64,000 nt of DNA from an uncultured Bacilli bacterium (GCA_934129885.1 CAKOWU010000002.1:76070-140069), one strand, 5' to 3'; counted from the stretch's first letter, positions 141-23,945 are shown. Numbers and translations: made by a program. Notes: generated from the sequence alone by a model not told the origin.

Positions 141-215
141 ATAAAACACGTTGTTAGCGTTGGAGTTAAAATAAGGTGCGATAAGACGCATCACTTTTCA
201 AAAGTATCCATCATG
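141..215 (-). repeat. Degenerate AAC-rich partial copy of the 3' coding region of the adjacent gene (template-repeat-like relic)
   Basis: Minus strand reads ATCGCACCTTATTTTAACTCCAACGCTAACAACGTGTTTTAT. It shows 29/41 identities to each hypervariable block. In 6 of the 12 mismatches versus copy 1 this copy carries A. Confidence 0.35.
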
Positions 216-262
216 GCCCGCTCTTCTGATTAGGCCATGTGTAAAATTTAAATTTAAATCGT

Positions 263-373
263 CAGGCAGCTGCTGACGCAGTCGCCTGATTATTCTGCGA
301 GACTTTCGCTATCGCTCGTCCCGCTCCTGCGTCCCTTTCAGGGACTTATCAATTGCTTCGTTTATATTTTATC
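263..373 (-). repeat. Conserved GC-rich 3' non-coding element, copy 1 (partner 22213..22323)
   Basis: 111 nt immediately after the stop codon, only 3 substitutions versus the partner. Contains hairpins GTCCCT-GAA-AGGGAC and CGTCAG-N7-CTGACG. Far more GC-rich than surrounding DNA. Confidence 0.85.
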
Positions 374-1849
374 TTATCCTACGGTATACGGACTATCTGA
401 AGTCCCGTCTCCCTCAAGAGAGATGTCAGAGGATAGATAAAGAACTGGCGCCGCGCCGAAACTGTTAAGAGCGAAGTTGTAGATCAGGTTGCCGCCACTG
501 CCCACATTGAACACGAGGCTAACGTTGGAGCTAGAGGAAGGCGCGATTGTCCATGAAAAACTTTTTGCCGCAGGTCCTGCGTAAATCCAGTTATGCGTAT
601 CACTATTATTATAACATGATGATGTAACAGAATATGCATTTACATTTGTACATGCGGAATTGGTACTGGCTTTTACATAATCACTTTGATTCATTAATCC
701 TACTTTACCTTTCCATTTATACGTTTGTTCCTGCGATATTGTATTTGATAAATTGGTTTCATCTTTTTTTGTTACTCCTACATTAAACATATGTGATACT
801 ACTATATTTTGAACATTACTACTTAAACTATTATACCAATCATTATTTAAATATGTATTTAAATAAGCTTCTTTCTCCGGTAAATCTTTTAAAGTTCCAT
901 CTACAGTCCGAGGCATTTGGGTTACATTTTTTCCATTGGTATCAAGTGTAGTTGTTTTACTTCCCCATACATTGCAGCCCAAGTATGAAGATGCTTTAGA
1001 AACATAACAGTAATCTGCACTTGTACTAGAATATCTAGTACCATCAGTTGAATTTGAACCTGTTACACCAGTAATGCTTGTTGAATACCCAGGGTCAAAC
1101 ACCTTATTACCTATACTACCATTCTTTATTACCTTGAGTGTGTTATCACTTTCTACCGATATTATTCTATATGTATCTGTACCTAATGTAATATAGTTAT
1201 TTGGGTTTGCTCCTCTATACACATATCTGCCTGCTTCGGTAGTATCTTTATATAAACCATCACCAGATGTTGTCGCTAACGTTTTTAAATCGTCTATACT
1301 TTTACCATTAGAAGTTATTGGTATATCACTCGTACCATCACTTTGTGTAAAGTCTAAAGTAGCGGTTAGTGATGCATCTAGTTTTGTGGGCTGTGATGTG
1401 ATTTTACTATTATATGTTACACTTACATTAAGTATAGCACTCTCTCCTTTACGTAATACTCCGCCTTCTTTTAAACCTTTTGTTTCAAATAATACTGCTG
1501 GGTTATCTTCTTTAGTTAAAGTTATTTTATTAAGTTTGGCGTCTAAACTACCTTTATTTTCTACCTTAATATTATAAGTTATAGAGTCTCCTGGAGACAC
1601 TAAATTGGTACTAAAAGTCGCAGTTAGTTTTTCAAAGGTTGGCTGCTCTTTTACTGATGCACTACCTACTTTATTACTAGTAGTAATATCTGTTATCTCT
1701 ACATCCCATGTAGTAGATATATTAGATGTACCAGATATCTTTAAACTACTTGCGAAAGCCGCATATCCTACGGCCATAACAACTATAACCGCAAGTAAAC
1801 CTCCTATAAGTATATTTTTATTATTCTTATAACTTCTATGTCTATTCAT
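374..1849 (-). CDS. Secreted/surface protein, paralog 1: basic N-terminus plus one TM with a GYAAFASSLKISG motif, and a C-terminal W-x-x-x-P...G-A-A-P-V-L-Y-L lectin-like module with a hypervariable block
   Basis: 491-aa ORF, GGTGAT RBS, highly similar by eye along its length to 22324..23802 apart from a linker region and the hypervariable block. Confidence 0.85.
   Translation of the reverse strand: MNRHRSYKNNKNILIGGLLAVIVVMAVGYAAFASSLKISGTSNISTTWDVEITDITTSNKVGSASVKEQPTFEKLTATFSTNLVSPGDSITYNIKVENKGSLDAKLNKITLTKEDNPAVLFETKGLKEGGVLRKGESAILNVSVTYNSKITSQPTKLDASLTATLDFTQSDGTSDIPITSNGKSIDDLKTLATTSGDGLYKDTTEAGRYVYRGANPNNYITLGTDTYRIISVESDNTLKVIKNGSIGNKVFDPGYSTSITGVTGSNSTDGTRYSSTSADYCYVSKASSYLGCNVWGSKTTTLDTNGKNVTQMPRTVDGTLKDLPEKEAYLNTYLNNDWYNSLSSNVQNIVVSHMFNVGVTKKDETNLSNTISQEQTYKWKGKVGLMNQSDYVKASTNSACTNVNAYSVTSSCYNNSDTHNWIYAGPAAKSFSWTIAPSSSSNVSLVFNVGSGGNLIYNFALNSFGAAPVLYLSSDISLEGDGTSDSPYTVG
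455..531 (-). other. Hypervariable block, copy 1 (DGR variable-region-like)
   Basis: 26 codons, 17 ending in C. 20 differences from copy 2, 18 of them at codon positions 1-2. Followed 3' by the 12-nt G/C-only run 447..458. Confidence 0.6.
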
Positions 1850-1919: not shown

Positions 1920-1985
1920 GAAACACCTAAAACGTCCTATTGCTACTATGGCAATGATATCAAAAAATAGAAATAATGTAAATAA
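1920..1985 (-). promoter_or_regulatory. Conserved upstream box, copy 1 of 3
   Basis: AAACACCTAAAACGTCCTATTGCTACTATGGCAATGATATCAAAAAA is shared with 23873..23945 and 16801..16860. TGTCGAA (0A-box-like) lies at 1900..1906. Confidence 0.5.
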
Positions 1986-2002: not shown

Positions 2003-2032
2003 AGAAAAAGAAGACCTATTTGACAGTCTTCT
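2003..2032 (-). terminator. Terminator after aspS
   Basis: Stem AGAAGAC/GTCTTCT (2009-2015 / 2026-2032) followed by TTTTTC on the minus strand. Confidence 0.5.
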
Positions 2033-3773
2033 ATCTTATCTTTATATGAACTTCTCTAAGTTGTTGTTCTGAAACAGTACTAGGAGAACCCATCATATTA
2101 TCAATACCTAAAGTATTAGGTGGGAATGCTTGTACTTCTCTTAAATTTTTCTCATCACGTAATAACATAAGCATTCTATCTATTCCAGGAGCCATACCGG
2201 CATGTGGAGGAACTCCATACTTAAATGCTGTATAAAGTGATTTAAATTTTTCTTTAACAATATCTTCTGTATAGCCTACTTCCTTAAATCCGTGCATTAA
2301 ACTATCTAAATCATGGTTACGTACAGCACCTGAACTCATTTCAAAGCCATTACATACAAAGTCATATTGATAAGCAAGTATATCTTTTATATCGCCATTA
2401 TATGCGTTCATACCACCTTGTGGCATACTAAATGGATTATGTCCAAAATCCCATTTATTTTCTTCTTCGTTCCACTCAAACATAGGCATATCATTAATAA
2501 TACAAAATTCGTATTTATTAGGATCTATTAATTCTAACTTTTTACCTAACTCTGTTCTTATTTGACCGGCGTAATTTGCCGCGACTGATTCTTTTCTGTT
2601 AGCGATAAAGAATATAACATCTCCTTTTGAAAGTTCTGCCTTACTAATTAGTGCTTTTCTCTCATCATCAGATAGAAATTTATCAATAGGGCCTTTAAAG
2701 GTATTATCGCCTAAAACAGATATATATCCAATACCAGGCATACCAATTGAAGATGCGAAATCTACTATTTCATTAAACCAACTATTAGATTTATCTGCGA
2801 TGCCTTCTACTTTTATACCTCTAACAATGGACTTTTGAAAAGGTTTAAATGTAGTATTCGCAAATTCTTCTGTTAAATCTATTATCAAAAGGGGATTTCT
2901 TAAATCTGGTTTATCAGTACCATATTTAAGCATTGCCTCTTTATATGGTATTCTTTTAAATGGTCTTTCTGAAACTTCTTTTGATGAAAAATGTTTGAAA
3001 GTATCGTAAAATATTTCTTCACCTATTTTATAAACATCTTCTTCAGTTGCGAAAGCCATTTCAAAATCTAACTGGTAAAACTCAAGGGTTCTATCAGCAC
3101 GAGAGTCTTCATCTCTAAAGCAAGGTGCGATTTGATAATACTTATCAAAGCCCCCTACCATAAGTAACTCCTTGAATATTTGTGGAGCCTGCGGTAAAGC
3201 ATAAAACTGACCTTTATACTTTCTAGATGGAACTAGAAAATCTCTAGCACCCTCTGGAGATGAAGCTGTTAAAATAGGTGTTTGAACTTCAGTAAAACCT
3301 AAACTATCCATTTTATTTCTTAAATATTTTAATAGTTCACTTCTAAACTTAATATTATCATGTACTCTATTGTTTCTCATATCTAAATAGCGATACTTAA
3401 GTCTTAATTCTTCATTTACTTTAGTGCTTGTTTTTATCTCAAATGGTAATTCATGTAAAGACTTGCCAAGTAGTGTAAACTCTTTAATAAGTATCTCTAC
3501 TGTACCAGATTTAATTTTTGGATTAAAGTTTTCTTCATCACGCATTCTAACAACGCCCTCTAAAGAAATAGTAGATTCTTTAGCAAGCCCATTAAATATA
3601 GAATCATCGTTACTTACTATTTGAACAGTACCAGTTTCGTCTCTTAAATCTACAAATATAACTCCGCCATGATCTCTAATGTTTTCTACCCAGCCTGCGA
3701 CCTTTACAGTTTTACCAAGAACGTCCTCAGTAATTTCACCGGGTCTTATATTTCTATATATATTATCCATCAT
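2031..3773 (-). CDS. aspS: Aspartate--tRNA ligase, probably non-discriminating given linkage to gatCAB and tRNA-Asn
   Basis: 580 aa with class II aaRS motifs (FRDED..R, GGMAPGIDR-like GMAPGIDRMLML) and an OB-fold N-terminus. Confidence 0.95.
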   Translation of the reverse strand: MMDNIYRNIRPGEITEDVLGKTVKVAGWVENIRDHGGVIFVDLRDETGTVQIVSNDDSIFNGLAKESTISLEGVVRMRDEENFNPKIKSGTVEILIKEFTLLGKSLHELPFEIKTSTKVNEELRLKYRYLDMRNNRVHDNIKFRSELLKYLRNKMDSLGFTEVQTPILTASSPEGARDFLVPSRKYKGQFYALPQAPQIFKELLMVGGFDKYYQIAPCFRDEDSRADRTLEFYQLDFEMAFATEEDVYKIGEEIFYDTFKHFSSKEVSERPFKRIPYKEAMLKYGTDKPDLRNPLLIIDLTEEFANTTFKPFQKSIVRGIKVEGIADKSNSWFNEIVDFASSIGMPGIGYISVLGDNTFKGPIDKFLSDDERKALISKAELSKGDVIFFIANRKESVAANYAGQIRTELGKKLELIDPNKYEFCIINDMPMFEWNEEENKWDFGHNPFSMPQGGMNAYNGDIKDILAYQYDFVCNGFEMSSGAVRNHDLDSLMHGFKEVGYTEDIVKEKFKSLYTAFKYGVPPHAGMAPGIDRMLMLLRDEKNLREVQAFPPNTLGIDNMMGSPSTVSEQQLREVHIKIR

Positions 3774-3774
3774 C

Positions 3775-5229
3775 TCACCTCTTCTCTATTTCTTCTAGCA
3801 TAGTCTCACGTGCCATACTAGGATTAGCCTTTCCTTTAGTCTTTTTCATAATTTGACCTACTAAATAATCAGCAACATTATTTTTACCAGATTTATATTT
3901 TTCTACTAACTCTGGATTTTCATCTAATACCTCGTTAGCAACTTTCACAATCGCAGTCTTATCAGTTATCTGCATCATGCCTTTTTCTTTGACTATTGCC
4001 TCTGGTACCTTACCTTCTGCCATACAAATTGCAAAAACTTCTTTGGCTTGTTTTGAAGATATAACCTTATCTTCTACAAGTTTAATAAGTTGACATAAGT
4101 GGGCAGGTGTCATTAAAGCATCAGAAATAGTCTTATTTTCTTTATTAAGAGTACCAAGTATATTAGTTGTGATCCAGTTAGAAGCACTCTTAGGATTAGC
4201 ATCTAAACTAATAGCCTCTTCAAAGAAATCAGACACATCTTTTTCCTTAACTAATATAGTGGCATCATAATCAGTTAAACCATATTCTTCTATATATAAC
4301 TTCTTTCTTTCTGAAGCAAGCATAGGAATTTCTTCCTTAATCTCTTCTATCCATTCTTTAGATAATCTAACCTTTGGAATATTTGGCTCTACAAAATATT
4401 TATAATCAATGGCGTCTGCCTTACTACGCATAAACTTTGTACTCATAGAATCTTCATCCCATCTACGAGTTTGTTGTTCCATAGAATCGTATTCACCAGT
4501 CTCTTTTAGATCGGTTTGTCTTTCTATTTCATAGTTAATAGCGTCTCTAACACCACCGAAAGAATTGACATTCTTAATCTCAATTTTAGTACCCCAGTTA
4601 CTTGGGTCATTCTCATCAAGTGAGGCATCCATGATAGACACATTAACATCACATCTAATTTGTCCTTTTTTACTATCAGCCTCACTTATACCAGCATACT
4701 GATATATACTTCTCATGGTTTCTAGGAATGCGACTGCCTCATCAGCACTTCTAAAACAAGGAGTTGTAACAAGTTCAAGTAATGGAACGCCCGCTCTATT
4801 ATAATCAATCTTTGATACATCACCAGTATGAACTGAAGATGCAGCATCTTCTTCTAAATGCAAATTATCAATGATAGCTTCTTTTTCTTCGCCATTACAT
4901 TCAAATTTTAATTTACCATATATTCCAACTGGTATAGGTTTAGTTTCCTGCGTAATTTGAAAGCCTTTAGGTAAATCTGGATAGTAATAGTTTTTTCTTT
5001 CAAAATACATATATTCTGGTTGTGTGCATTTTAATATTAAACTTGCCATAACTGCTTTTTTTACGGCTTCTTTATTAACTACTGGTAAAGTACCAGGAAA
5101 AGCCATATCAACTGGTCTAATATTAACATTCGCACTTTCATTATAATCATTCGCCGCAGATGAAAATACTTTAGTATTAGTTTCACTTATCTCACAGTGC
5201 ATTTCAAGTCCAATTAATGCCTTATACAT
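3775..5229 (-). CDS. gatB: Asp/Glu-tRNA amidotransferase subunit B
   Basis: 484 aa with the typical GatB N-terminus (IGLEMHCE...) and a C-terminal YqeY-like tail. Confidence 0.95.
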   Translation of the reverse strand: MYKALIGLEMHCEISETNTKVFSSAANDYNESANVNIRPVDMAFPGTLPVVNKEAVKKAVMASLILKCTQPEYMYFERKNYYYPDLPKGFQITQETKPIPVGIYGKLKFECNGEEKEAIIDNLHLEEDAASSVHTGDVSKIDYNRAGVPLLELVTTPCFRSADEAVAFLETMRSIYQYAGISEADSKKGQIRCDVNVSIMDASLDENDPSNWGTKIEIKNVNSFGGVRDAINYEIERQTDLKETGEYDSMEQQTRRWDEDSMSTKFMRSKADAIDYKYFVEPNIPKVRLSKEWIEEIKEEIPMLASERKKLYIEEYGLTDYDATILVKEKDVSDFFEEAISLDANPKSASNWITTNILGTLNKENKTISDALMTPAHLCQLIKLVEDKVISSKQAKEVFAICMAEGKVPEAIVKEKGMMQITDKTAIVKVANEVLDENPELVEKYKSGKNNVADYLVGQIMKKTKGKANPSMARETMLEEIEKR

Positions 5230-7063: not shown

Positions 7064-7139
7064 TGGCGCCTGATGTAGGACTCGAACCTACGACCTAACG
7101 GTTAACAGCCGTGCGCTCTACCGACTGAGCTAATCAGGC
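7064..7139 (-). tRNA. tRNA-Asn (GUU), encoded CCA
   Basis: Cloverleaf read by hand: acceptor GCCUGAU/AUCAGGC, anticodon loop CUGUUAA, T-arm GGUUCGAGUCC. Confidence 0.9.
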
Positions 7140-7143
7140 AAAG

Positions 7144-7219
7144 TGGCGCCCAATGTAGGACTCGAACCTACGACCTAACGGTTAACAGCCGTGCGCTCTA
7201 CCAACTGAGCTAATTGGGC
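7144..7219 (-). tRNA. tRNA-Asn (GUU), second tandem copy
   Basis: Body identical to 7064..7139, with compensated acceptor-stem changes (GCCCAAU/AUUGGGC). Confidence 0.9.
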
Positions 7220-7221
7220 AA

Positions 7222-7480
7222 AAGTATAAAAAGACAGTTAAGCGTCCCCATATAAGGACGAATAACTGTAACTCGCGGTACCACCTTATTTATCACACGA
7301 AGTGATCTCTCTATAGTTTCAAATGAAACTTATAACGCGGTAACGGGTTACATCCGATTTATCCTACTGTTATTTCAGATAAATTACTCTGTGGTGTTAT
7401 TCACAGTAGTATTATTATTAGTTCTCATCATACTAACTTTCTGTAAATAAGTGACTACTGTTACTTCTCCACTTCCTAGT
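7222..7480 (-). promoter_or_regulatory. T-box riboswitch leader, candidate Asn (AAC) specifier
   Basis: T-box sequence AAUAAGGUGGUACCGCGAG (7271-7290). Terminator ACAGUUA..CGUCC-loop-GGACG..UAACUGU plus CUUUUUAU. Stem I base GUGG/CCAC encloses AGAAGUAA and UGAAUAACA, with AAC-A (7396-7398) directly before the closing helix. Confidence 0.75.
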
Positions 7481-7507
7481 ATCTATAAAATATTTATAAA
7501 CAAATTT

Positions 7508-7584
7508 TGGTAGTCCGTACGGGATTTGAACCCGTGAATGCATGCGTGAAAGGCATGTGTGTTAACCAATTTCACCAACGGACC
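7508..7584 (-). tRNA. tRNA-Glu (UUC)
   Basis: Anticodon loop CUUUCAC, acceptor GGUCCGU/ACGGACU, encoded CCA. Confidence 0.85.
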
Positions 7585-7592
7585 AAATTAAA

Positions 7593-7669
7593 TGGTGGGC
7601 CTGGCAGGACTTGAACCTGCGACCCCTCGCTTATCAAGCGAGTGCTCTAACCAACTGAGCTACAGGCCC
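7593..7669 (-). tRNA. tRNA-Ile (GAU)
   Basis: Anticodon loop CUUGAUAA, acceptor GGGCCUG/CAGGCCC, encoded CCA. Confidence 0.85.
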
Positions 7670-11705: not shown

Positions 11706-14441
11706 CTATTTTCCATTTACAACTTCATTACAGTGTGTACATATACCACCAGTTATCTCAAGTTCATCGAAGTAATTCCAGCATCTTTCGCATCTAATAC
11801 CTTCAAACTTCTCTACCTTAACCATACAGTTGTCATATTTAGTAAACTCATTCGTACTTAAAACAACATCAGAAACAATTAATAACTGTTTTAAATCCGG
11901 TAATATATCATGAAGCATCTCTTTATCTTCTTCTCTTAAATTCAAATAAACCTTTGCCTCTAATGACTTACCAATAATCTTTTCACTTCTTGCCTCTTCA
12001 AGAGCCTTATAAACATCGTTCTTAATGCCAAAGAAAGCGTTCCATTTTTCCTTCAATTCTTCTTTCTCTTTATAAATTAAAACTTCTGGGAAACTTTCTA
12101 AATGAACAGATTCTTCCTTTCTATAAGGCATAAATTTATAAACTTCTTCACTAGTATAAGGAAGTACTGGAGCCATAAGCCTTACTAAATTATAAATAAT
12201 TTCATATAAAACAGTCTGAACACTACGTCTGCGAACACTGTCAGCCTTATCTATATATAAAATATCTTTAGTAAAATCAAGGTAGAAATTAGATAAACTA
12301 GATATATAATTATTAAATAGCTTGTATATCTCATCAAAATTATAATCATCATAATTCTTTCTAATATTCTTTACAAAATCATTTAAATTTACAAGCATAT
12401 ATTTATCAACACTAGAAAGTCTGTCATAAGCAATCTTATCTTTTTTAGGATTAAAATCAGAAATATTACCTAAAATAAATCTATAAGTATTTCTAATCTT
12501 TCTATAACTCTCTTTAACTTGCGTAAGAAGTTCACTACTAAACCTAACATCTTCTGTAAAGTCAACACTAAGAGCCCAAAGTCTTAAAATATCAGAACCA
12601 TGTTTTGATACAATGTCCATTGGAGCCACTACATTACCAATAGACTTACTCATCTTAAGGCCCTTACCATCTAAAACAAAACCAGATGATAGAAGTTCCT
12701 TATATGGGCTTTTACCAAAAGCCGCAACACTACAAATTAATGAAGAATTAAACCATCCTCTATATTGGTCAGAGCCCTCAAGATAAATATCGGCAGGATA
12801 ACTCATACCTCTTTCCATAAGTACTCCCGCAAATGAAGTTCCAGAGTCAAACCAAACATCCATTATATCAGTTTCTTTAGTAAATTTACCATTCGGAGAT
12901 GCTGGATTTGTATAACCCTTTGGTAATAAATCTACCGCATCCTTTTCAAACCAATAATTAGAGCCATGTTCTCTAAATAACTTTGAAACATGCATCATAA
13001 CATCATAATCTACTATTTCAGAGCCATCTTCATTATAGAATATTGGAATAGGTACACCCCAAGCCCTTTGTCTTGAAATACACCAGTCTCCTCTGCCCTC
13101 AATCATATTACGAATTCTAGTCTTACCCCATTCAGTATGGAATTTTATCTTATTATCAATTTCATTTAATAAATCATCTCTTATCTTATCCACACTACAG
13201 AACCATTGCTTTGTTGCTCTAAAAATAATAGGCTTTTTAGTACGCCAATCATGTGGATATGAGTGCTTAATAAACTTAAGTTTAAGTAGATAACCATTTT
13301 CATCTAACCAACCAGTTATAGCCTTATTCGCGTCTTCAAAGAATAAACCCTCAAACATACCAGACTCTTTATTTAAAGTACCGTCATCATCAACACCATT
13401 AACCATATCAAGGTTACAGTTCTTACCAACAATAAAGTCATCCTCACCATAAGCAGGTGCCGTATGAACAAGTCCAGTTCCAGCTTCAGTTGTGACATGA
13501 TGTCCAATAACCACAGGGCTAATTCTATCCATAAATGGGTGTTTATAAGTAATACCTACTAAATCAGTACCTTTAAAAGTATTTAAAGTCTCATACTCAT
13601 CAAAGCCAAACTCTTCCATTAAGCCTGAAACAAGTTCTGTTGCGACAACGTAGTTAGAACCATTACTTTTTATAAGAGAATATTCTAGATTTTCACCTAC
13701 ACACACGCCAGTATTTCCCGGTAAAGTCCATGGAGTAGTTGTCCAAATAACAAGTTTATCTCCAGCACTTACAAAATCATTACCTTCTTCTACTGTAAAA
13801 GCTACAAAAACTGAAGGATCTTTTCTGTCCTTATACTCAATTTCAGCCTCCGCAAGTGCAGTTTCTGAAGAAGGAGACCAATATACTGGTTTTAATCCCT
13901 TAAATATTAAACCTTTTTTAGCCATTTTAGCAAATATCTCAATTTGTCTTGCCTCATATTCTTTTTTCAAAGTTATATAAGGATTATCAAAATCTCCCAT
14001 AATATTAAGTTTTATGAAATCATTCTTCTGCTTATCTACTTGCTTTAAAGCATATTCCATACATAACTTTCTAAAATCTGCGACGCTCATTTCTTTTCTG
14101 TTTACACCACTATTAGTAACCGCCTGTTCAATAGGAAGACCATGAGTATCCCATCCAGGAACGAAGTCTACAAAATAGCCTTCCATCATCTTTGAACGAT
14201 TTATAAAATCCTTAAGAATTTTTTGAAACGCATGACCAATATGAATATTTCCGTTAGCGTATGGTGGACCATCATGTAAAACAAAAGGTTTATTACTTTT
14301 ATTTTTCTCTTTTATCTTATTATATAAATCCATCTCTCCCCATTTTTCTCTCTGTAAAATCTCATTCTCTGCGAGATTGCCCCTCATTTTAAACTCTGTT
14401 TTTGGCATTAATAAAGTATCTTTATAATCCATTTCTCTCAT
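11706..14441 (-). CDS. ileS: Isoleucine--tRNA ligase
   Basis: 911 aa with HIGH (NIHIGH), KMSKS and a C-terminal zinc ribbon CERCW...CTHC. Confidence 0.97.
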   Translation of the reverse strand: MREMDYKDTLLMPKTEFKMRGNLAENEILQREKWGEMDLYNKIKEKNKSNKPFVLHDGPPYANGNIHIGHAFQKILKDFINRSKMMEGYFVDFVPGWDTHGLPIEQAVTNSGVNRKEMSVADFRKLCMEYALKQVDKQKNDFIKLNIMGDFDNPYITLKKEYEARQIEIFAKMAKKGLIFKGLKPVYWSPSSETALAEAEIEYKDRKDPSVFVAFTVEEGNDFVSAGDKLVIWTTTPWTLPGNTGVCVGENLEYSLIKSNGSNYVVATELVSGLMEEFGFDEYETLNTFKGTDLVGITYKHPFMDRISPVVIGHHVTTEAGTGLVHTAPAYGEDDFIVGKNCNLDMVNGVDDDGTLNKESGMFEGLFFEDANKAITGWLDENGYLLKLKFIKHSYPHDWRTKKPIIFRATKQWFCSVDKIRDDLLNEIDNKIKFHTEWGKTRIRNMIEGRGDWCISRQRAWGVPIPIFYNEDGSEIVDYDVMMHVSKLFREHGSNYWFEKDAVDLLPKGYTNPASPNGKFTKETDIMDVWFDSGTSFAGVLMERGMSYPADIYLEGSDQYRGWFNSSLICSVAAFGKSPYKELLSSGFVLDGKGLKMSKSIGNVVAPMDIVSKHGSDILRLWALSVDFTEDVRFSSELLTQVKESYRKIRNTYRFILGNISDFNPKKDKIAYDRLSSVDKYMLVNLNDFVKNIRKNYDDYNFDEIYKLFNNYISSLSNFYLDFTKDILYIDKADSVRRRSVQTVLYEIIYNLVRLMAPVLPYTSEEVYKFMPYRKEESVHLESFPEVLIYKEKEELKEKWNAFFGIKNDVYKALEEARSEKIIGKSLEAKVYLNLREEDKEMLHDILPDLKQLLIVSDVVLSTNEFTKYDNCMVKVEKFEGIRCERCWNYFDELEITGGICTHCNEVVNGK

Positions 14442-14451
14442 CTCCTCATAA

Positions 14452-14660
14452 CAAAAAAAGTCCTTAAATCTTAAGGACGAAAAAATCGCGGTACCACCTT
14501 ACTTTATAGATATAAATCTATACACTCAAAACTATAACGCGTTACCGTTCATCCCTACTTAAATTTTAGGAAAACACATCAAGAGTGATCCATATATTAA
14601 TGATTTATTAGTTCACACCAACCACTAATTCTCTGCGAAATCTATATAATATAACGTCTC
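14452..14660 (-). promoter_or_regulatory. T-box leader of ileS (candidate AUC specifier at 14587-14589)
   Basis: AAGGUGGUACCGCG (14487-14500), then terminator GUCCUUAAGAUUUAAGGAC plus a U-run immediately upstream of ileS. Confidence 0.8.
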
Positions 14661-14671
14661 TATCAACTGTT

Positions 14672-15127
14672 TTAAAGTTCCACTTTTTCAATTTCATCAA
14701 TAACCTCAAGTTGTTGCTCTACAATGTTTTTAAGCCTTCTTTTAAATACTGTAACATTTCTTTGAAGTGTCATCGCATCATTTTCAATCTTTTCTGCTCT
14801 TTGTAACGCCTCATTAACTATTCTACTAGCGTTCTTTTTAGCGTCATCAAGCATAATCTCACTTTCCTTATGAGCCGCAACTTTAAGTTGATCGGAAGTC
14901 TTTTGTGCCATAATAATTGCTCTATTCAAAGTATCTTCCATTCTTTCATATTGGGCAAGTCTTTCCATGACCTCAGGATTGCCTTGATTTTTCTTAAGTC
15001 TTTCAATCTCTTTATCTTTAGCGTTTATCTCTGAAATCATCTCTTCAATACGTGTAATGATTTGATCTAAAAAGTTATTAACTTCTTCTGGATCATAGCC
15101 CCTTAGTACACGATTAAATCTTTCCAT
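14672..15127 (-). CDS. divIVA: DivIVA-domain cell-division protein
   Basis: N-terminal F-x-x-x-LRGYDxxEV motif, coiled coil, position upstream of ileS as in Bacillus. Confidence 0.85.
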   Translation of the reverse strand: MERFNRVLRGYDPEEVNNFLDQIITRIEEMISEINAKDKEIERLKKNQGNPEVMERLAQYERMEDTLNRAIIMAQKTSDQLKVAAHKESEIMLDDAKKNASRIVNEALQRAEKIENDAMTLQRNVTVFKRRLKNIVEQQLEVIDEIEKVEL

Positions 15128-16571: not shown

Positions 16572-16757
16572 TTACTGTAGCATTTTTACCAGCATACTAT
16601 TAAGTTTTGTATAATTAATACTCTCTTCTTCTTTTCTTCCATATATAAAGACAGCATAATCAATGGATAGACATAATAGCGCTGCTAACAAACAAAATAC
16701 TATTATTCTCTTTTGCTTTTTTGCATCTTTTCTACGTAAATGTTTCCTGCATTTCAT
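16572..16757 (-). CDS. Small membrane protein with the same upstream box and signal-anchor style as the large paralogs (possible truncated family member)
   Basis: 61 aa: basic N-terminus, one TM, IDYAVF motif. The conserved upstream box lies at 16801..16860. Confidence 0.4.
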   Translation of the reverse strand: MKCRKHLRRKDAKKQKRIIVFCLLAALLCLSIDYAVFIYGRKEEESINYTKLNSMLVKMLQ

Positions 16758-16800
16758 ATCATGTCCCTTTATCTTATGAAATATATTTTATTATTAGGTG

Positions 16801-16860
16801 AAACACCTAAATTATCCTATTGCTGTTATGGTAATAATATCAAAAAATAATGGTAACGCA
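16801..16860 (-). promoter_or_regulatory. Conserved upstream box, copy 3
   Basis: AAACACCTAAATTATCCTATTGCTGTTATGGTAATAATATCAAAAAA, about 42/50 identical to copy 1. Confidence 0.45.
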
Positions 16861-16891
16861 AGTACCGTATGTGCAGGTTACCTATTTTTGT

Positions 16892-16922
16892 TAATAAAAA
16901 GCATTAGATTTTTGTCTCTAAT
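16892..16922 (-). terminator. Terminator module shared with 18121..18149
   Basis: ATTAGA-N8-TCTAAT hairpin with a minus-strand T-run. About 30 nt nearly identical to the second copy. Confidence 0.5.
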
Positions 16923-16966
16923 ACTCTAGCGGCCCTTTCTGATAAATCAATTGTCTTATTAAAATA

Positions 16967-17890
16967 TTATTTTTCTATTTTCAATTCTTCAATTTCATTT
17001 TCTGATAAACCCGTGCACTTAATGATAATTTCTAACGGTAAATGCTCCTTTAGCATATTTTTGGCTACTTTCTTTGCGTTTTCTAATGCGCCAACTGTCT
17101 TGCCATGTTTTTCGCCATTAATGTATCCCTCTTCTTGTCCAACTTCTTTACCATTGGCAAAATAAGTATTTCGGGTTTTCTCCTCATCTTCCTCTTTTGA
17201 CATAAATTCTATGAAGTCAGAATCATTGTTAATCTCTTTTACACTCTTTACAAACTCTTTCATAATCTTATCTCCGTTCGCACTTAATCTCTCTAATTCC
17301 TCTTTACCTAATGCAAGCATCGCTACATGGAAGTACTTGCTGTTACCATTATTATACCATGCCTTAAGTATTTTAGACCCATTAAATTCGATTATCTTGA
17401 ATTTGGTCGAGTATTCAAGGCCGGTTTCTTTATCAGTAAGAACGTATACGGCTTTTTCAGGATAGTGCTCTGGCAGGCCATAAGTAAAGTTTATGAGTAT
17501 TGCTTCATCTACATTTTTATAATCACTTCCTGACTTTATAACATTAGAGAATAAAGCACAAAGATATGAAAGTCCTTTCTCATGCTGACCATCATAAAAA
17601 GATGAGTTCATTTCTAAAATGGCATGTCTACCGCCTTCCAAAGTAACCATAACATCTACTCTTTGTTTTTTTGTCCACACGCTTTTATAAGGTAATTCTA
17701 AAATATTGGAATTAAGCACAGTTACCTTTTCTTCCATAGACATATCTAAATAATACTTTAATAAGTTCCTTCTTCCTACAAACATAGCCTTAAATACCGA
17801 GTCCGCTAGTGGTTTATAGAATACTGTTCCATCTGGCAACACCTCCTTTGTTTGAATATTTTTTGTATCCATTTTTTTCACATTGTTCAT
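16967..17890 (-). CDS. Rpn-family recombination-promoting nuclease / putative transposase (PD-(D/E)XK)
   Basis: 307 aa with N-terminal DSVFKAMF motif and a C-terminal helical tail, typical of YhgA/Rpn-like proteins. Confidence 0.7.
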   Translation of the reverse strand: MNNVKKMDTKNIQTKEVLPDGTVFYKPLADSVFKAMFVGRRNLLKYYLDMSMEEKVTVLNSNILELPYKSVWTKKQRVDVMVTLEGGRHAILEMNSSFYDGQHEKGLSYLCALFSNVIKSGSDYKNVDEAILINFTYGLPEHYPEKAVYVLTDKETGLEYSTKFKIIEFNGSKILKAWYNNGNSKYFHVAMLALGKEELERLSANGDKIMKEFVKSVKEINNDSDFIEFMSKEEDEEKTRNTYFANGKEVGQEEGYINGEKHGKTVGALENAKKVAKNMLKEHLPLEIIIKCTGLSENEIEELKIEK

Positions 17891-22067: not shown

Positions 22068-22212
22068 GATGTGCTTTGTCTACAATCTTACAAAGTAAAA
22101 GGTAAAACATAAGAAGCATTTACATAATTCTTCCTCCTTGTTTTCCCACAAAAAAATATGGAATGTAAATCTTATAATTTACACACCATATTATACAAGG
22201 CCTTTAAACCAG

Positions 22213-22323
22213 CAGGCAGCTGCTGACGCAGTCGCCTGATTATCCTGCGAGACTTTCGCTATCGCTCGTCCCGCTCCTGCGTCCCTTTCAGGGACTTACC
22301 AATTGCTTCGTTTATGTTTTATC
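22213..22323 (-). repeat. Conserved GC-rich 3' non-coding element, copy 2
   Basis: 108/111 identical to 263..373. Confidence 0.85.
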
Positions 22324-23802
22324 TTATCCTACAGTATACGGACTATTTGAAATCCCGTCTCCCTCAAGAGAGATATCAGAGGATAGATAAAGAACTGGCG
22401 CCGCACCGTAACTGTTAATAGCGTAGTCGTGGCTCAGGCCGCCGTCACTGTACACATGGAACATGTTGCTAGCGTTTAAGGTAGAGGAAGGCGCGATTGT
22501 CCATGAAAAATTTTTTGCCGCAGGTCCTGCGTAAATCCAGTTATGCGTAGCACTTTCTTCATAACATGATGAATTATTCCAATATGCCATTACACTTGTA
22601 CACTCTGAATTAGTACTTGCTTTTACATAATCACTTGGATTCATTAATCCTACTTTACCTTTCCATTTATACGTTTGTTCCTGCGTTATTGTATTTGATA
22701 AATTTGTTACATTATATTTCGTTACACCAACATTAAACATATGTGATACTACTATATTTTGAACATTACTACTTAAACTATTATACCAATCATTATTTAA
22801 ATATGTATTCAAATAAGCTTCTTTCTCCGGCAAATCTTTTAAAGTTCCATCTATAGTCCAAGGCATTTGTGTTACATTTTTTCCATTAGTATCAAGCGTT
22901 GTTGTTTTGCTTCCCCATACTTTACAGCCCAAGTATGAAGATGCTGAAGAATCATAACAGTAATCTGTCCTTGTACTAGAATATCTAGTACCATCAGTTG
23001 AATTTGAACCTGTTACGTCAGTAATGCTTGTTGAATACCCAGGGTCAAACACCTTAATACCTATACTACCATTTTTTATTACCTTTAGTGTGTTATCACT
23101 TTCTATGGCAATTATTCTATATGTATCTGTACCTAATGTAATATAGTTATTTGGGTTTGCTCCTCTATATACATATCTGCCTGCTTCCGTAGAATCAGTA
23201 TAGAGTCCGTCACCACTGGTAACTACTTTTGCTTTTAACATTTCTGCGGCAGCATTACTAGTATCTCCACCAGTACTACCACTACTTCCGTCACTTTGGA
23301 CAAAGTCTAATGTAACTGTTAGAGATGCATCTAGATTAGTAGGTTGTGAGGTAACGCTATTACTATAAGTTACTTTTACTGACAATGTAGAAGATGTACC
23401 TTGTTTTAAGACATCACCTTCTTTTATACCACTTGTTTCAAATAATATCGCAGAATTATTATCTTTTTTTAGGGCTATTTTATTAAGTTTGGCATTTAGG
23501 TTACCTTTGTTTTCTACTTTTATATTATAAGTTATACTATCGCCAGGCAACACTAAATTAGTATTAAATGTAGCCGTTAGCCCGTCATAACTAGGTGTGC
23601 CACTTACTGATGCACTACCTACTTTATTACTAGTTGTAATGTCAGTGATTGATATATTCCAAGATGTAGATATATTAGATGTACCAGATATCTTTAAACT
23701 ACTTGCGAAAGCCGCATATCCTACCGCCATAATAACTACAACCGCAAGTAAGCCTCCTATAAGTATGCTTTTATTATTCTTATAACTTCTATGTCTGTTC
23801 AT
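22324..23802 (-). CDS. Secreted/surface protein, paralog 2
   Basis: 492 aa with the same architecture as 374..1849. Confidence 0.85.
   Translation of the reverse strand: MNRHRSYKNNKSILIGGLLAVVVIMAVGYAAFASSLKISGTSNISTSWNISITDITTSNKVGSASVSGTPSYDGLTATFNTNLVLPGDSITYNIKVENKGNLNAKLNKIALKKDNNSAILFETSGIKEGDVLKQGTSSTLSVKVTYSNSVTSQPTNLDASLTVTLDFVQSDGSSGSTGGDTSNAAAEMLKAKVVTSGDGLYTDSTEAGRYVYRGANPNNYITLGTDTYRIIAIESDNTLKVIKNGSIGIKVFDPGYSTSITDVTGSNSTDGTRYSSTRTDYCYDSSASSYLGCKVWGSKTTTLDTNGKNVTQMPWTIDGTLKDLPEKEAYLNTYLNNDWYNSLSSNVQNIVVSHMFNVGVTKYNVTNLSNTITQEQTYKWKGKVGLMNPSDYVKASTNSECTSVMAYWNNSSCYEESATHNWIYAGPAAKNFSWTIAPSSTLNASNMFHVYSDGGLSHDYAINSYGAAPVLYLSSDISLEGDGISNSPYTVG
22405..22481 (-). other. Hypervariable block, copy 2 (DGR variable-region-like)
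   Basis: 15 of 26 codons end in C. See the pairwise comparison with 455..531. Confidence 0.6.
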
Positions 23803-23872: not shown

Positions 23873-23945
23873 AAAGCACCTAAAATGTTCTATTGCTTCT
23901 ATGGTAATGATATCAAAAAACAGGGATGATGTAAATACTCCAGCA
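23873..23945 (-). promoter_or_regulatory. Conserved upstream box, copy 2
   Basis: AGCACCTAAAATGTTCTATTGCTTCTATGGTAATGATATCAAAAAA. TGTCGAA lies at 23853..23859. Confidence 0.5.

What the first reader, a model, noticed from the sequence alone, without database searches (positions are those of the whole stretch)
22385..22500. GC-rich NNC-codon island and G/C-only run at the end of the variable block (IMH-like)
In an AT-rich genome whose codons normally end in A/T, 15 of 26 codons (copy 2) and 17 of 26 (copy 1) in the variable block end in C (agc, aac, ggc, tac, gac, cac...). Immediately 3' of the last variable site, copy 1 has a 12-nt G/C-only run (GGCGCGGCGCC-type, 447..458). Copy 2 has the same run with one T (22397..22408). 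A conserved AT-richer stretch (AGTTCTTTATCTATCC) follows. In characterised DGRs the VR ends in a G/C-only tract plus about 20 conserved nt (the IMH) that marks the cDNA-homing boundary. Two loci sharing this implies a multi-target system or a past one.
Basis: partly seen in the sequence, partly recalled or inferred. Interest (0 to 1): 0.7.

Follow-up and report, generated by a model that had tools for sequence, protein, structure and literature searches.

The report
Orphaned DGR variable repeats with IMH
The C-ending-codon island and G/C run are the hypermutation target (variable repeat plus homing boundary) of a diversity-generating retroelement in two surface-protein genes, but the reverse-transcriptase cassette that wrote them has been deleted from its usual place next door; this is a known kind of system caught in a decayed state.

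Summary
In both paralogous minus-strand genes (374-1849 and 22324-23802), 15-17 of 26 codons end in C. The background is 9.6%, and no 26-codon window in 38 other genes exceeds 11. The bias is confined to the last ~60 codons. It is followed by a G/C run and an identical AGTTCTTTATCTATCC.

These are DGR variable repeats (446-547 and 22396-22497) with an IMH (431-458 and 22381-22408). Homologous genes in related gut Bacilli MAGs carry complete cassettes (target, TR, MutS-like, bAvd, RT). Their TR-VR mismatches fall mostly or wholly at template adenines, and TR-VR homology ends at the equivalent GC tract.

One cassette family lies at the same gatB-aspS position as copy 1. In the window that cassette is gone, and only a 38-nt TR stub remains (145-182). 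No RT, Avd or MSL was found in 83 kb of the 114-kb contig.

The VRs are therefore orphan or remote targets. Whether an RT elsewhere in the genome still serves them is unresolved.

A conserved multi-hairpin 3' tail (253-373 and 22203-22323) travels with the VRs and has no Rfam match. Overall this is a new member of a known kind, of modest interest.

The parts
22324..23802 (-). Target gene copy 2 (492 aa): N-terminal signal-anchor, Ig-like domain, and a C-terminal DUF6273-like variable domain
   Evidence: ORF and translation. Pfam DUF6273 scores 22.2 bits against a cut-off of 23.5, and many homologs carry precomputed PF19789.
22396..22497 (-). Variable repeat (VR) of copy 2
   Evidence: The NNC codon island. 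Its boundaries come from the TR stub and from TR/VR pairs in relatives. A 99%-identical strain (L081) differs by about 28 nt plus a 3-nt indel in this stretch.
22381..22408 (-). IMH-like boundary of copy 2: GC run 22397-22408 plus AGTTCTTTATCTATCC at 22381-22396
   Evidence: The TR/VR homology boundary in six related cassettes maps to the equivalent place.
22203..22323 (-). Structured GC-rich 3' tail of copy 2: hairpin 1 at 22281-22295, hairpin 2 at 22247-22274, hairpin 3 at 22213-22238
   Evidence: It is 95% identical to the copy 1 tail, while synonymous sites elsewhere differ by about 26%. Folding z-score is -2.9. Compensatory pairs are seen in relatives.
374..1849 (-). Target gene copy 1 (491 aa), directly downstream of gatA-gatB-aspS
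446..547 (-). Variable repeat (VR) of copy 1
431..458 (-). IMH-like boundary of copy 1: G/C-only run 447-458 plus AGTTCTTTATCTATCC at 431-446
205..373 (-). Structured 3' tail of copy 1: hairpin 1 at 331-345, hairpin 2 at 297-324, hairpin 3 at 263-288, extra hairpin at 212-239
   Evidence: (z = -5.4). The same sequence follows the paralogs in L002, L008 and L083.
145..182 (-). Stub of the template repeat (first 38 nt of a TR): ATCGCACCTTATTTTAACTCCAACGCTAACAACGTGTT
   Evidence: It matches the start of the VR at 29 of 38 positions, and 6 of the 9 mismatches are A in the stub. The ungapped score is 20; 300 shuffles gave a mean of 8.3 and a maximum of 14. It sits where intact cassettes carry their TR. 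A longer (~48-55 nt) stub follows the paralog in L002.

Best explanation
The flagged block is the variable repeat of a diversity-generating retroelement (DGR) target gene. The G/C run plus AGTTCTTTATCTATCC is its IMH, the 3' boundary at which adenine-mutagenised cDNA copied from a template repeat (TR) is homed into the gene. The NNC codons are the footprint of AAC-type codons in the TR. Random replacement of the two adenines changes codon positions 1 and 2, keeps the C and never makes a stop codon. Both genes encode exported proteins whose C-terminal DUF6273 (C-type-lectin-like) domain displays the variable residues. In related gut Bacilli the gene downstream of gatB-aspS is followed by a structured spacer, a TR, a MutS-like gene, bAvd and the RT. 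In this genome that cassette has been deleted, leaving the spacer and 38 nt of TR after copy 1. Copy 2 is a dispersed paralog that kept the VR, IMH and spacer. The two VRs are therefore products of past mutagenic retrohoming. They are now orphan targets, or at best remote targets of an RT lying outside the 83 kb of contig that could be examined. Shown: the codon and GC signature, hypervariability confined to the VR, the homologous intact cassettes and their TR/VR boundaries, the synteny, the TR stub, and the absence of RT, Avd and MSL nearby. Inferred: that the same mechanism wrote these two VRs, and when it stopped.
For: (1) Signature. The C3 and GC island is confined to the 3' end. VR differences fall at codon positions 1-2. 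In eight VRs of this clade the variable codons show 3-4 different bases at positions 1 and 2 with a near-constant third-position C (123 C, 37 T, 25 G, 2 A), and the residues come almost only from the NNC set.
(2) Family. In 67 homologs, entropy exceeds 3 bits at alternating positions of residues 439-465, between the strongly conserved flanks WTIAP and APVLYLSSD.
(3) Intact relatives. L073 has TR/VR with 15 of 15 mismatches at A, plus bAvd and RT. L084 has 19 of 20, L086-88 have 16 of 18, L026 has 20 of 26 and L076 has 17 of 22. RVT_1, bAvd and MutS_I were confirmed by Pfam.
(4) Boundary. In all of them TR/VR identity ends at the GC-rich tract, followed by VR GTTCTCTATCTA against TR ACTCTCTAT. 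The window carries the VR form.
(5) Synteny. L076-80 read gatB-aspS-target-TR-MSL-RT. The window reads gatB-aspS-copy 1 and then Yip1 and argS, with a significant 38-nt TR stub at 145-182.
(6) No RT, Avd or MSL by tblastn in the window, L001, L075 or L092, which cover contig positions 24184-107454.
(7) Two strains that are 98.7-99.7% identical over 21 kb differ by about 28 nt plus a codon indel inside the copy 2 VR, while 420 nt of the same gene show no difference.
(8) DUF6273 is already described as a DGR target domain with the VR at its C-terminus and a C-lectin-like fold (PMC10743442, PMC11792537).
Against: No TR or RT that matches these VRs was found anywhere. The window, GTDB genomes, IMG/VR and JGI metagenomes all gave no hit. 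The A-to-N test on this genome therefore rests on a 38-nt stub, and 3 of its 9 mismatches are not at A. The copy 2 VR is identical in 7 of 8 strain variants and the copy 1 VR in 3 of 3, which shows no ongoing diversification. Identical VRs across three samples also occur at an intact cassette (L086-88), so this does not prove inactivity. Part of the variation among paralogs is mosaic recombination rather than DGR action. P0127 joins the copy 2 body to the C-terminus of P0076, and 10 of 12 differences in the patch upstream of the L081 VR match copy 1. The Pfam DUF6273 hits on the two window proteins are just below threshold, and the AF2 model of the C-terminal domain has only moderate confidence.
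Confidence: 0.85

Rival explanations
1. Active multi-target DGR: an intact TR-MSL-Avd-RT cassette lies elsewhere in this ~1.5-Mb genome and still diversifies both VRs in trans, as in Treponema denticola. The stub after copy 1 is then only a relic of a second, lost cassette.
For: The IMH, the VR flanks and the tail are far better conserved between the paralogs (about 5% divergence) than synonymous sites elsewhere (about 26%), as expected if they are still needed in cis. The NNC pattern has not decayed. Two 99%-identical strains carry different copy 2 VRs. Remote targets more than 100 kb from the RT are known for chromosomal DGRs (PMC5758913). About 31 kb of the contig and the rest of the genome were not seen.
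Against: No RT, Avd, MSL or TR in 83 kb. VRs are identical across most strain variants. The lineage shows repeated cassette decay: the RT in L026 is split by an insertion, Avd in L076-80 carries an in-frame TAG, L012 keeps only MSL, and the window keeps only a stub.
Confidence: 0.35
2. No DGR is involved: the block is a hypervariable loop maintained by diversifying selection and paralog gene conversion, and its GC-rich codons reflect a foreign or converted segment.
For: Mosaic recombination among paralogs is real. A patch upstream of the VR (codons 400-434) also shows only non-synonymous differences and lies outside any TR.
Against: Selection and conversion do not explain a fixed third-position C with free positions 1-2. 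They do not explain the TR stub. They do not explain homologous genes in relatives paired with adenine-specific TRs and RTs at the same chromosomal site.
Confidence: 0.03

Closest known systems
Bordetella phage BPP-1 DGR (mtd VR, IMH, TR, avd, brt)
   Same: The VR lies at the 3' end of the target ORF, AAC-type codons are diversified, and a GC-rich tract followed by conserved bases marks the 3' limit of mutagenesis. Relatives carry bAvd and an RVT_1 RT (PMC5758913, PMC3240598).
   Different: The setting is chromosomal, not phage. The GC run is 12 nt rather than 14. The first conserved hairpin lies about 70-85 nt beyond the IMH rather than 4-34 bp, and its loops are not consistently GRNA. In the relatives the accessory genes lie after the TR and include a MutS-like gene. 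In the window the TR and RT are missing.
Treponema denticola and Legionella pneumophila chromosomal DGRs (remote targets; MSL accessory in Legionella)
   Same: Several dispersed paralogous target genes share one VR/IMH design. The relatives carry an MSL plus Avd accessory set, which Wu et al. 2018 describe for 16 DGRs including the Legionella one.
   Different: Here no RT can be assigned to the targets, and the cassette next to one target is visibly deleted. The target domain is DUF6273-like rather than FGE-sulfatase (formylglycine-generating-enzyme) type or DUF1566.
DUF6273 DGR targets of gut Firmicutes phages (tentaclins; Faecalibacterium prophages)
   Same: The same domain family is involved, the VR maps to the C-terminal end of DUF6273, and a C-type-lectin-like fold is reported (PMC10743442, PMC11792537).
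   Different: Those are phage receptor-binding or decoration proteins. These are cellular proteins next to housekeeping genes, with a signal-anchor and Ig-like domain, a type IV pilin-like N-terminus or LRR N-termini.

Membership tests
Diversity-generating retroelement (DGR) | A DGR-clade reverse transcriptase in the same genome | tested here: inconclusive
   tblastn found none in the window, L001, L075 or L092, which cover 83 kb of the 114-kb contig. RTs are present next to homologous targets in L073, L026, L076-80, L084 and L086-91.
Diversity-generating retroelement (DGR) | A TR/VR pair whose mismatches are at template adenines | tested here: inconclusive
   The window has no full TR, only a 38-nt stub with 6 of 9 mismatches at A. 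In homologous cassettes the counts are 15/15, 19/20, 16/18, 20/26 and 17/22.
Diversity-generating retroelement (DGR) | VR at the 3' end of the target ORF, with variation at codon positions 1-2 of AAC-derived codons and no stop codons | tested here: met
Diversity-generating retroelement (DGR) | IMH: a GC-rich tract plus conserved bases at the 3' limit of mutagenesis, differing from IMH* in the TR | tested here: met
   The tract and the following 16 nt are identical in both copies. In six related cassettes TR/VR identity ends at the equivalent tract and then diverges, and the window carries the VR (IMH) form. IMH* of this genome itself could not be seen.
Diversity-generating retroelement (DGR) | GC-rich inverted repeat shortly downstream of the IMH (7-10 bp stem, GRNA loop, 4-34 bp away; found in about a third of DGRs) | tested here: inconclusive
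   Three or four stable hairpins follow, but they start about 70-85 nt beyond the IMH, after the stop codon. Stems are 6-7 bp and loops vary (GAA, AAA, TTT, GCAA) (PMC3240598).
Diversity-generating retroelement (DGR) | Accessory protein (Avd, HRDC, MSL) | tested here: not met
   None in the window or its flanks. bAvd and MutS_I-like genes are present in the relatives' cassettes.
Diversity-generating retroelement (DGR) | Between-strain variation concentrated in the VR | tested here: met
   L001 and L081 are 98.7-99.7% identical over 21 kb. About 28 of 120 alignment positions covering the ~102-nt VR differ, and a 420-nt stretch of the same gene has no difference. Most strain variants nevertheless share one VR allele.
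DUF6273 / C-type-lectin-like DGR variable proteins | Match to PF19789 with the VR at the C-terminal end of the domain | tested here: inconclusive
   The window proteins score 18.9 and 22.2 bits against a cut-off of 23.5, aligned to profile positions 35-171 of 172. Many homologs have precomputed PF19789. The AF2 model has pLDDT 71.5, and its best PDB match is the T. ramosa IgA peptidase (E = 1e-5), whose N-terminal domain is annotated DUF6273.

The most novel reading that the evidence does not exclude
The GC-rich, multi-hairpin element that directly follows the stop codon of these target genes may be a previously undescribed cis-acting part of this DGR clade. It is retained at about 95-100% identity in orphan paralogs, present in a different sequence but the same architecture between VR and TR of every intact cassette examined, shows compensatory base changes, and has no Rfam match. 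Candidate roles are a sense-strand RNA or ssDNA structure that marks a gene as a homing target, or one that is read through into the TR RNA. Alongside it, this small-genome gut Bacilli lineage would be shedding DGR cassettes repeatedly and in different ways while keeping the frozen variable proteins.
Probability: 0.25. Interest if true: 0.5.

Novelty: new member of a known kind. Interest (0 to 1): 0.33.

Why it matters
It shows that sequence alone can pick out a DGR target when the template and the reverse transcriptase are absent: an NNC codon island followed by a G/C tract in an AT-rich genome is enough. Standard DGR finders start from the RT and would miss these loci. The locus also documents a DGR in decay. 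Cellular surface proteins were written by hypermutation and then left frozen after the cassette was deleted, and relatives lost function by other routes. That bears on how long DGR-made diversity persists in gut bacteria. The structured tail that travels with the VR is a testable candidate for a target-marking element.

Tried and rejected
1. A TR inside the window: three conserved VR-flank probes with up to 3 mismatches found only the two VRs, and the repeat finder gave no third copy.

2. A TR or VR of this sequence type in public DNA: degenerate patterns with N at every variable or adenine position found nothing in GTDB genomes, IMG/VR or JGI metagenomes. The window's own species is not in those collections.

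3. An RT next to close paralogs: L002-4 (next to rpsO), L081 (spo0A locus), L082 (next to spoVG), L083 and L008 have none.

4. RT homologs chosen in the hope that their TR matches this VR: P0145, P0154, P0229 and P0223 are all intact or near-intact cassettes of the same architecture, but each has its own TR sequence type.

5. A hairpin immediately after the IMH (TCTCTC-TTGA-GGGAGA) as the Guo-type cruciform: rejected, because it lies in coding sequence and is not conserved in the relatives.

6. Rfam on the tail: no match at the gathering threshold or at E of 10 or below.

7. The 12-sequence tail alignment A5 probably aligns non-homologous hairpins of the two sequence types. Its 'compensatory' pairs in hairpin 2 are therefore not used, and only the within-type alignments A6 and A7 are.

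8. Foreign origin of the whole gene: rejected, because GC and C3 are ordinary outside the last ~60 codons.

Full report
**Observation**

The window holds two paralogous genes on the minus strand, copy 1 at 374-1849 (491 aa) and copy 2 at 22324-23802 (492 aa). Their 3' ends and about 120 nt of downstream DNA form a 300-nt repeat, 253-552 against 22203-22502, at 90% identity. The mismatches cluster in one block.

In the 26-codon block, 17 codons (copy 1) and 15 codons (copy 2) end in C. The G/C-only run is at 447-458, and the same run with one T is at 22397-22408. AGTTCTTTATCTATCC follows in both copies.

The background fraction of C-ending codons in 38 other ORFs is 0.096. None of 13,025 windows of 26 codons in those ORFs exceeds 11. 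The island is local to the last ~60 codons of each gene, so a foreign origin of the whole gene is excluded. Between the copies, 18 of 20 VR differences lie at codon positions 1-2, against 94 of 197 in codons 1-399 (Fisher p = 2.5e-4).

**What the genes are**

Both proteins have a signal-anchor, an Ig-like domain and a C-terminal domain that matches Pfam DUF6273 just under threshold. More than 1,400 homologs exist, nearly all from gut metagenomes and 'Bacilli bacterium' MAGs. Some have the same C-terminal domain fused to a type IV pilin-like N-terminus or to LRRs.

In an alignment of 67 homologs, residues 439-465 reach more than 3 bits of entropy at alternating positions. They lie between the strongly conserved flanks WTIAP and APVLYLSSD. 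In eight VR DNA sequences of this clade, the variable codons show 3-4 different bases at positions 1 and 2 and a near-constant third-position C. The encoded residues come almost only from the NNC set.

This is the footprint expected from adenine mutagenesis of AAC codons. DUF6273 has already been described as a DGR target domain with the VR at its C-terminal end and a C-type-lectin-like fold (PMC10743442 and PMC11792537). My AF2 model was of moderate confidence. Its best PDB match was the T. ramosa IgA peptidase, whose N-terminal domain is annotated DUF6273.

**No template in the window**

Probes for the conserved VR flanks find only the two VRs. tblastn with the RT, Avd and MSL of related cassettes finds nothing in the window or in the flanking loci L001, L075 and L092. 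Together these cover positions 24184-107454 of the 114-kb Hadza gut metagenome contig that the window comes from.

**Relatives with complete cassettes**

A scan of GTDB genomes with the protein alignment returned 70 loci. A self-comparison for adenine-biased repeats picked out L073 and L026. The order in L073 is target, VR, TR, bAvd, an unannotated 210-aa gene, RT; all 15 mismatches are at TR adenines. The order in L026 is target, VR, TR, MutS_I-like, bAvd, RT; 20 of 26 mismatches are at adenines, and the RT is split by a 3.4-kb insert that carries three tyrosine recombinases.

Searching with the L026 RT gave thousands of relatives. Their contexts gave further cassettes of the same architecture: L076-80, L084, L086-88 and L089-91, with 17/22, 19/20 and 16/18 mismatches at adenines. 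In L076-80 the RT and TR are identical in five samples, but the VR has three alleles.

**The IMH test**

In each of these cassettes, TR/VR identity runs through a GC-rich tract (GGCGTTTCCCCA, GGCGTCCGCCCA, GCCCCTCGTCCCGCCG or GCCGTCCGCCCC). It then degrades: the VR reads GTTCTCTATCTA (or a close variant) and the TR reads ACTCTCTAT. The window's GGCGCGGCGCCA|GTTCTTTATCTATCC is the VR (IMH) form at the equivalent position.

**A deleted cassette**

L076-80 read gatB, aspS, target, TR, MSL, Avd, RT. The window reads gatB (3775-5229), aspS (2031-3773) and copy 1, and then, beyond the window edge, Yip1 and argS.

Where the relatives have their TR, copy 1 has ATCGCACCTTATTTTAACTCCAACGCTAACAACGTGTT at 145-182. 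This matches the first 38 nt of its own VR at 29 of 38 positions, with 6 of the 9 mismatches being A in the stub. The ungapped score is 20, against a mean of 8.3 and a maximum of 14 in 300 shuffles. A paralog next to rpsO in another Hadza assembly (L002) keeps the same tail and a longer (~48-55 nt) stub, and L008 keeps a rearranged one.

The simplest reading is that copy 1 was the cassette-adjacent target and that the TR-to-RT segment was lost.

**Is anything still active?**

The evidence is mixed.

- Against activity: the copy 2 VR is identical in 7 of 8 strain variants and the copy 1 VR in 3 of 3. The eighth copy 2 variant (P0127) carries the C-terminus of another paralog (P0076), which points to recombination or a chimeric assembly.
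- For recent activity: a strain 98.7-99.7% identical over 21 kb (L081) differs by about 28 nt and one codon indel within the copy 2 VR, while 420 nt of the same gene are identical. That VR matches neither window copy.
- For recent activity: the IMH, the VR flanks and the tail differ by about 5% between the copies, against about 26% at third codon positions elsewhere. This fits constraint in cis, or recent gene conversion followed by re-diversification.
- Caveat: identical VRs across three samples also occur at an intact cassette (L086-88), so allele sharing is weak evidence of inactivity.

I put about 0.35 on a live RT elsewhere in the genome.

**The tail**

Directly after the stop codon lies a GC-rich stretch (GC 0.48-0.51 in a ~30% GC genome) that folds into three hairpins. 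In copy 1 these are at 331-345, 297-324 and 263-288, with a fourth at 212-239. Sixteen tails from different cassettes and orphans give folding z-scores of -1.0 to -7.9, and 15 of them are at -2.3 or below.

Within the type found in L076, L078, L026, L023, L012 and L025, 6 of 21 predicted pairs show double compensatory changes; none of the six is broken in any sequence. Within the window's type, L008 and L006 carry compensatory changes in hairpin 1. Several G-U pairs on the sense strand favour a sense-strand RNA or ssDNA structure.

Rfam has no match. The hairpins start about 70-85 nt beyond the IMH, further than the 4-34 bp reported for DGR cruciforms, and their loops are not consistently GRNA (PMC3240598). 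Some orphan paralogs lack the tail altogether (L005, the second gene of L008, L072, L082). Its function is open.

**Verdict**

The finding is a correctly read DGR variable repeat and IMH in two paralogous surface-protein genes. Mechanism and family are known. The particular points here are the cellular DUF6273 targets in a small-genome gut Bacilli lineage, the deleted cassette with its TR stub, and the structured tail. I rate it a new member of a known kind, of modest interest.

Noticed in passing
window 253-373 and 22203-22323 (minus strand); L076 4790-4895, L026 11300-11400, L084 240-345, L086 1775-1870: A multi-hairpin GC-rich element directly after the stop codon of DGR target genes of this clade. 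It occurs in orphans and between VR and TR of intact cassettes. Compensatory base changes appear within sequence types. There is no Rfam match.
   Followed up: partly
L026 13280-16476: The DGR RT gene is split (12509-13195 and 16638-17036) by a 3.4-kb insert that encodes three tyrosine recombinases in a row. This looks like a recombinase-in-trio element inserted into the RT.
   Followed up: partly
L076 5808-5810 (gene calls suggest the same in L077-L080): The bAvd gene of this cassette carries an in-frame TAG where L026 has GAA. The VR nevertheless has three alleles among five samples that share an identical RT and TR.
   Followed up: no
L012 1846-2163: A target gene is followed by the structured tail and an MSL gene. 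No RT or Avd is detected in the ~9.4 kb of DNA held downstream. This is another partly decayed cassette.
   Followed up: no
window 1920-1984, 16800-16864, 23873-23937: A 65-nt repeat upstream of both target genes, probably a shared 5' leader or promoter. A third copy lies upstream of a 61-aa ORF (16572-16757, minus strand) that looks like a truncated paralog N-terminus. That ORF sits just downstream of a PDDEXK_2 (Rpn-like) gene at 16967-17890; a gene of the same family follows the RT in L084 and L085.
   Followed up: no
window 22176-22200 (minus strand); also in L006 and L082: A promoter-like box, CCTTGTATAATATGGTGTGTAAATT, occurs downstream of several paralogs at unrelated chromosomal sites. 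In copy 2 it is followed by a Shine-Dalgarno sequence and an ATG-TAA start-stop.
   Followed up: no
window codons 400-434 of both genes (about 548-652 and 22498-22605): A second variable patch just upstream of the VR shows 9 non-synonymous and 0 synonymous codon differences between the copies. It lies outside any TR. Between strains it behaves as a mosaic of paralog sequence: 10 of 12 differences in L081 match copy 1.
   Followed up: partly
L092 1-162 (about 10 kb beyond the right end of the window): A third paralog (465 aa) on the same contig has a VR-like, GC-rich 3' end (GGCGTGGCCCCAGTATTCTTCTTA). It has no structured tail.
   Followed up: no
L008 11693-12991: The same variable C-terminal domain is fused to a type IV pilin-like N-terminus (PF07963). 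This gene lies in tandem after a signal-anchor-type paralog.
   Followed up: no
window 7067-7669, 7251-7486 and 14470-14675: A cluster of four tRNA genes and two T-box leaders. These are ordinary features and unrelated to the finding.
   Followed up: no
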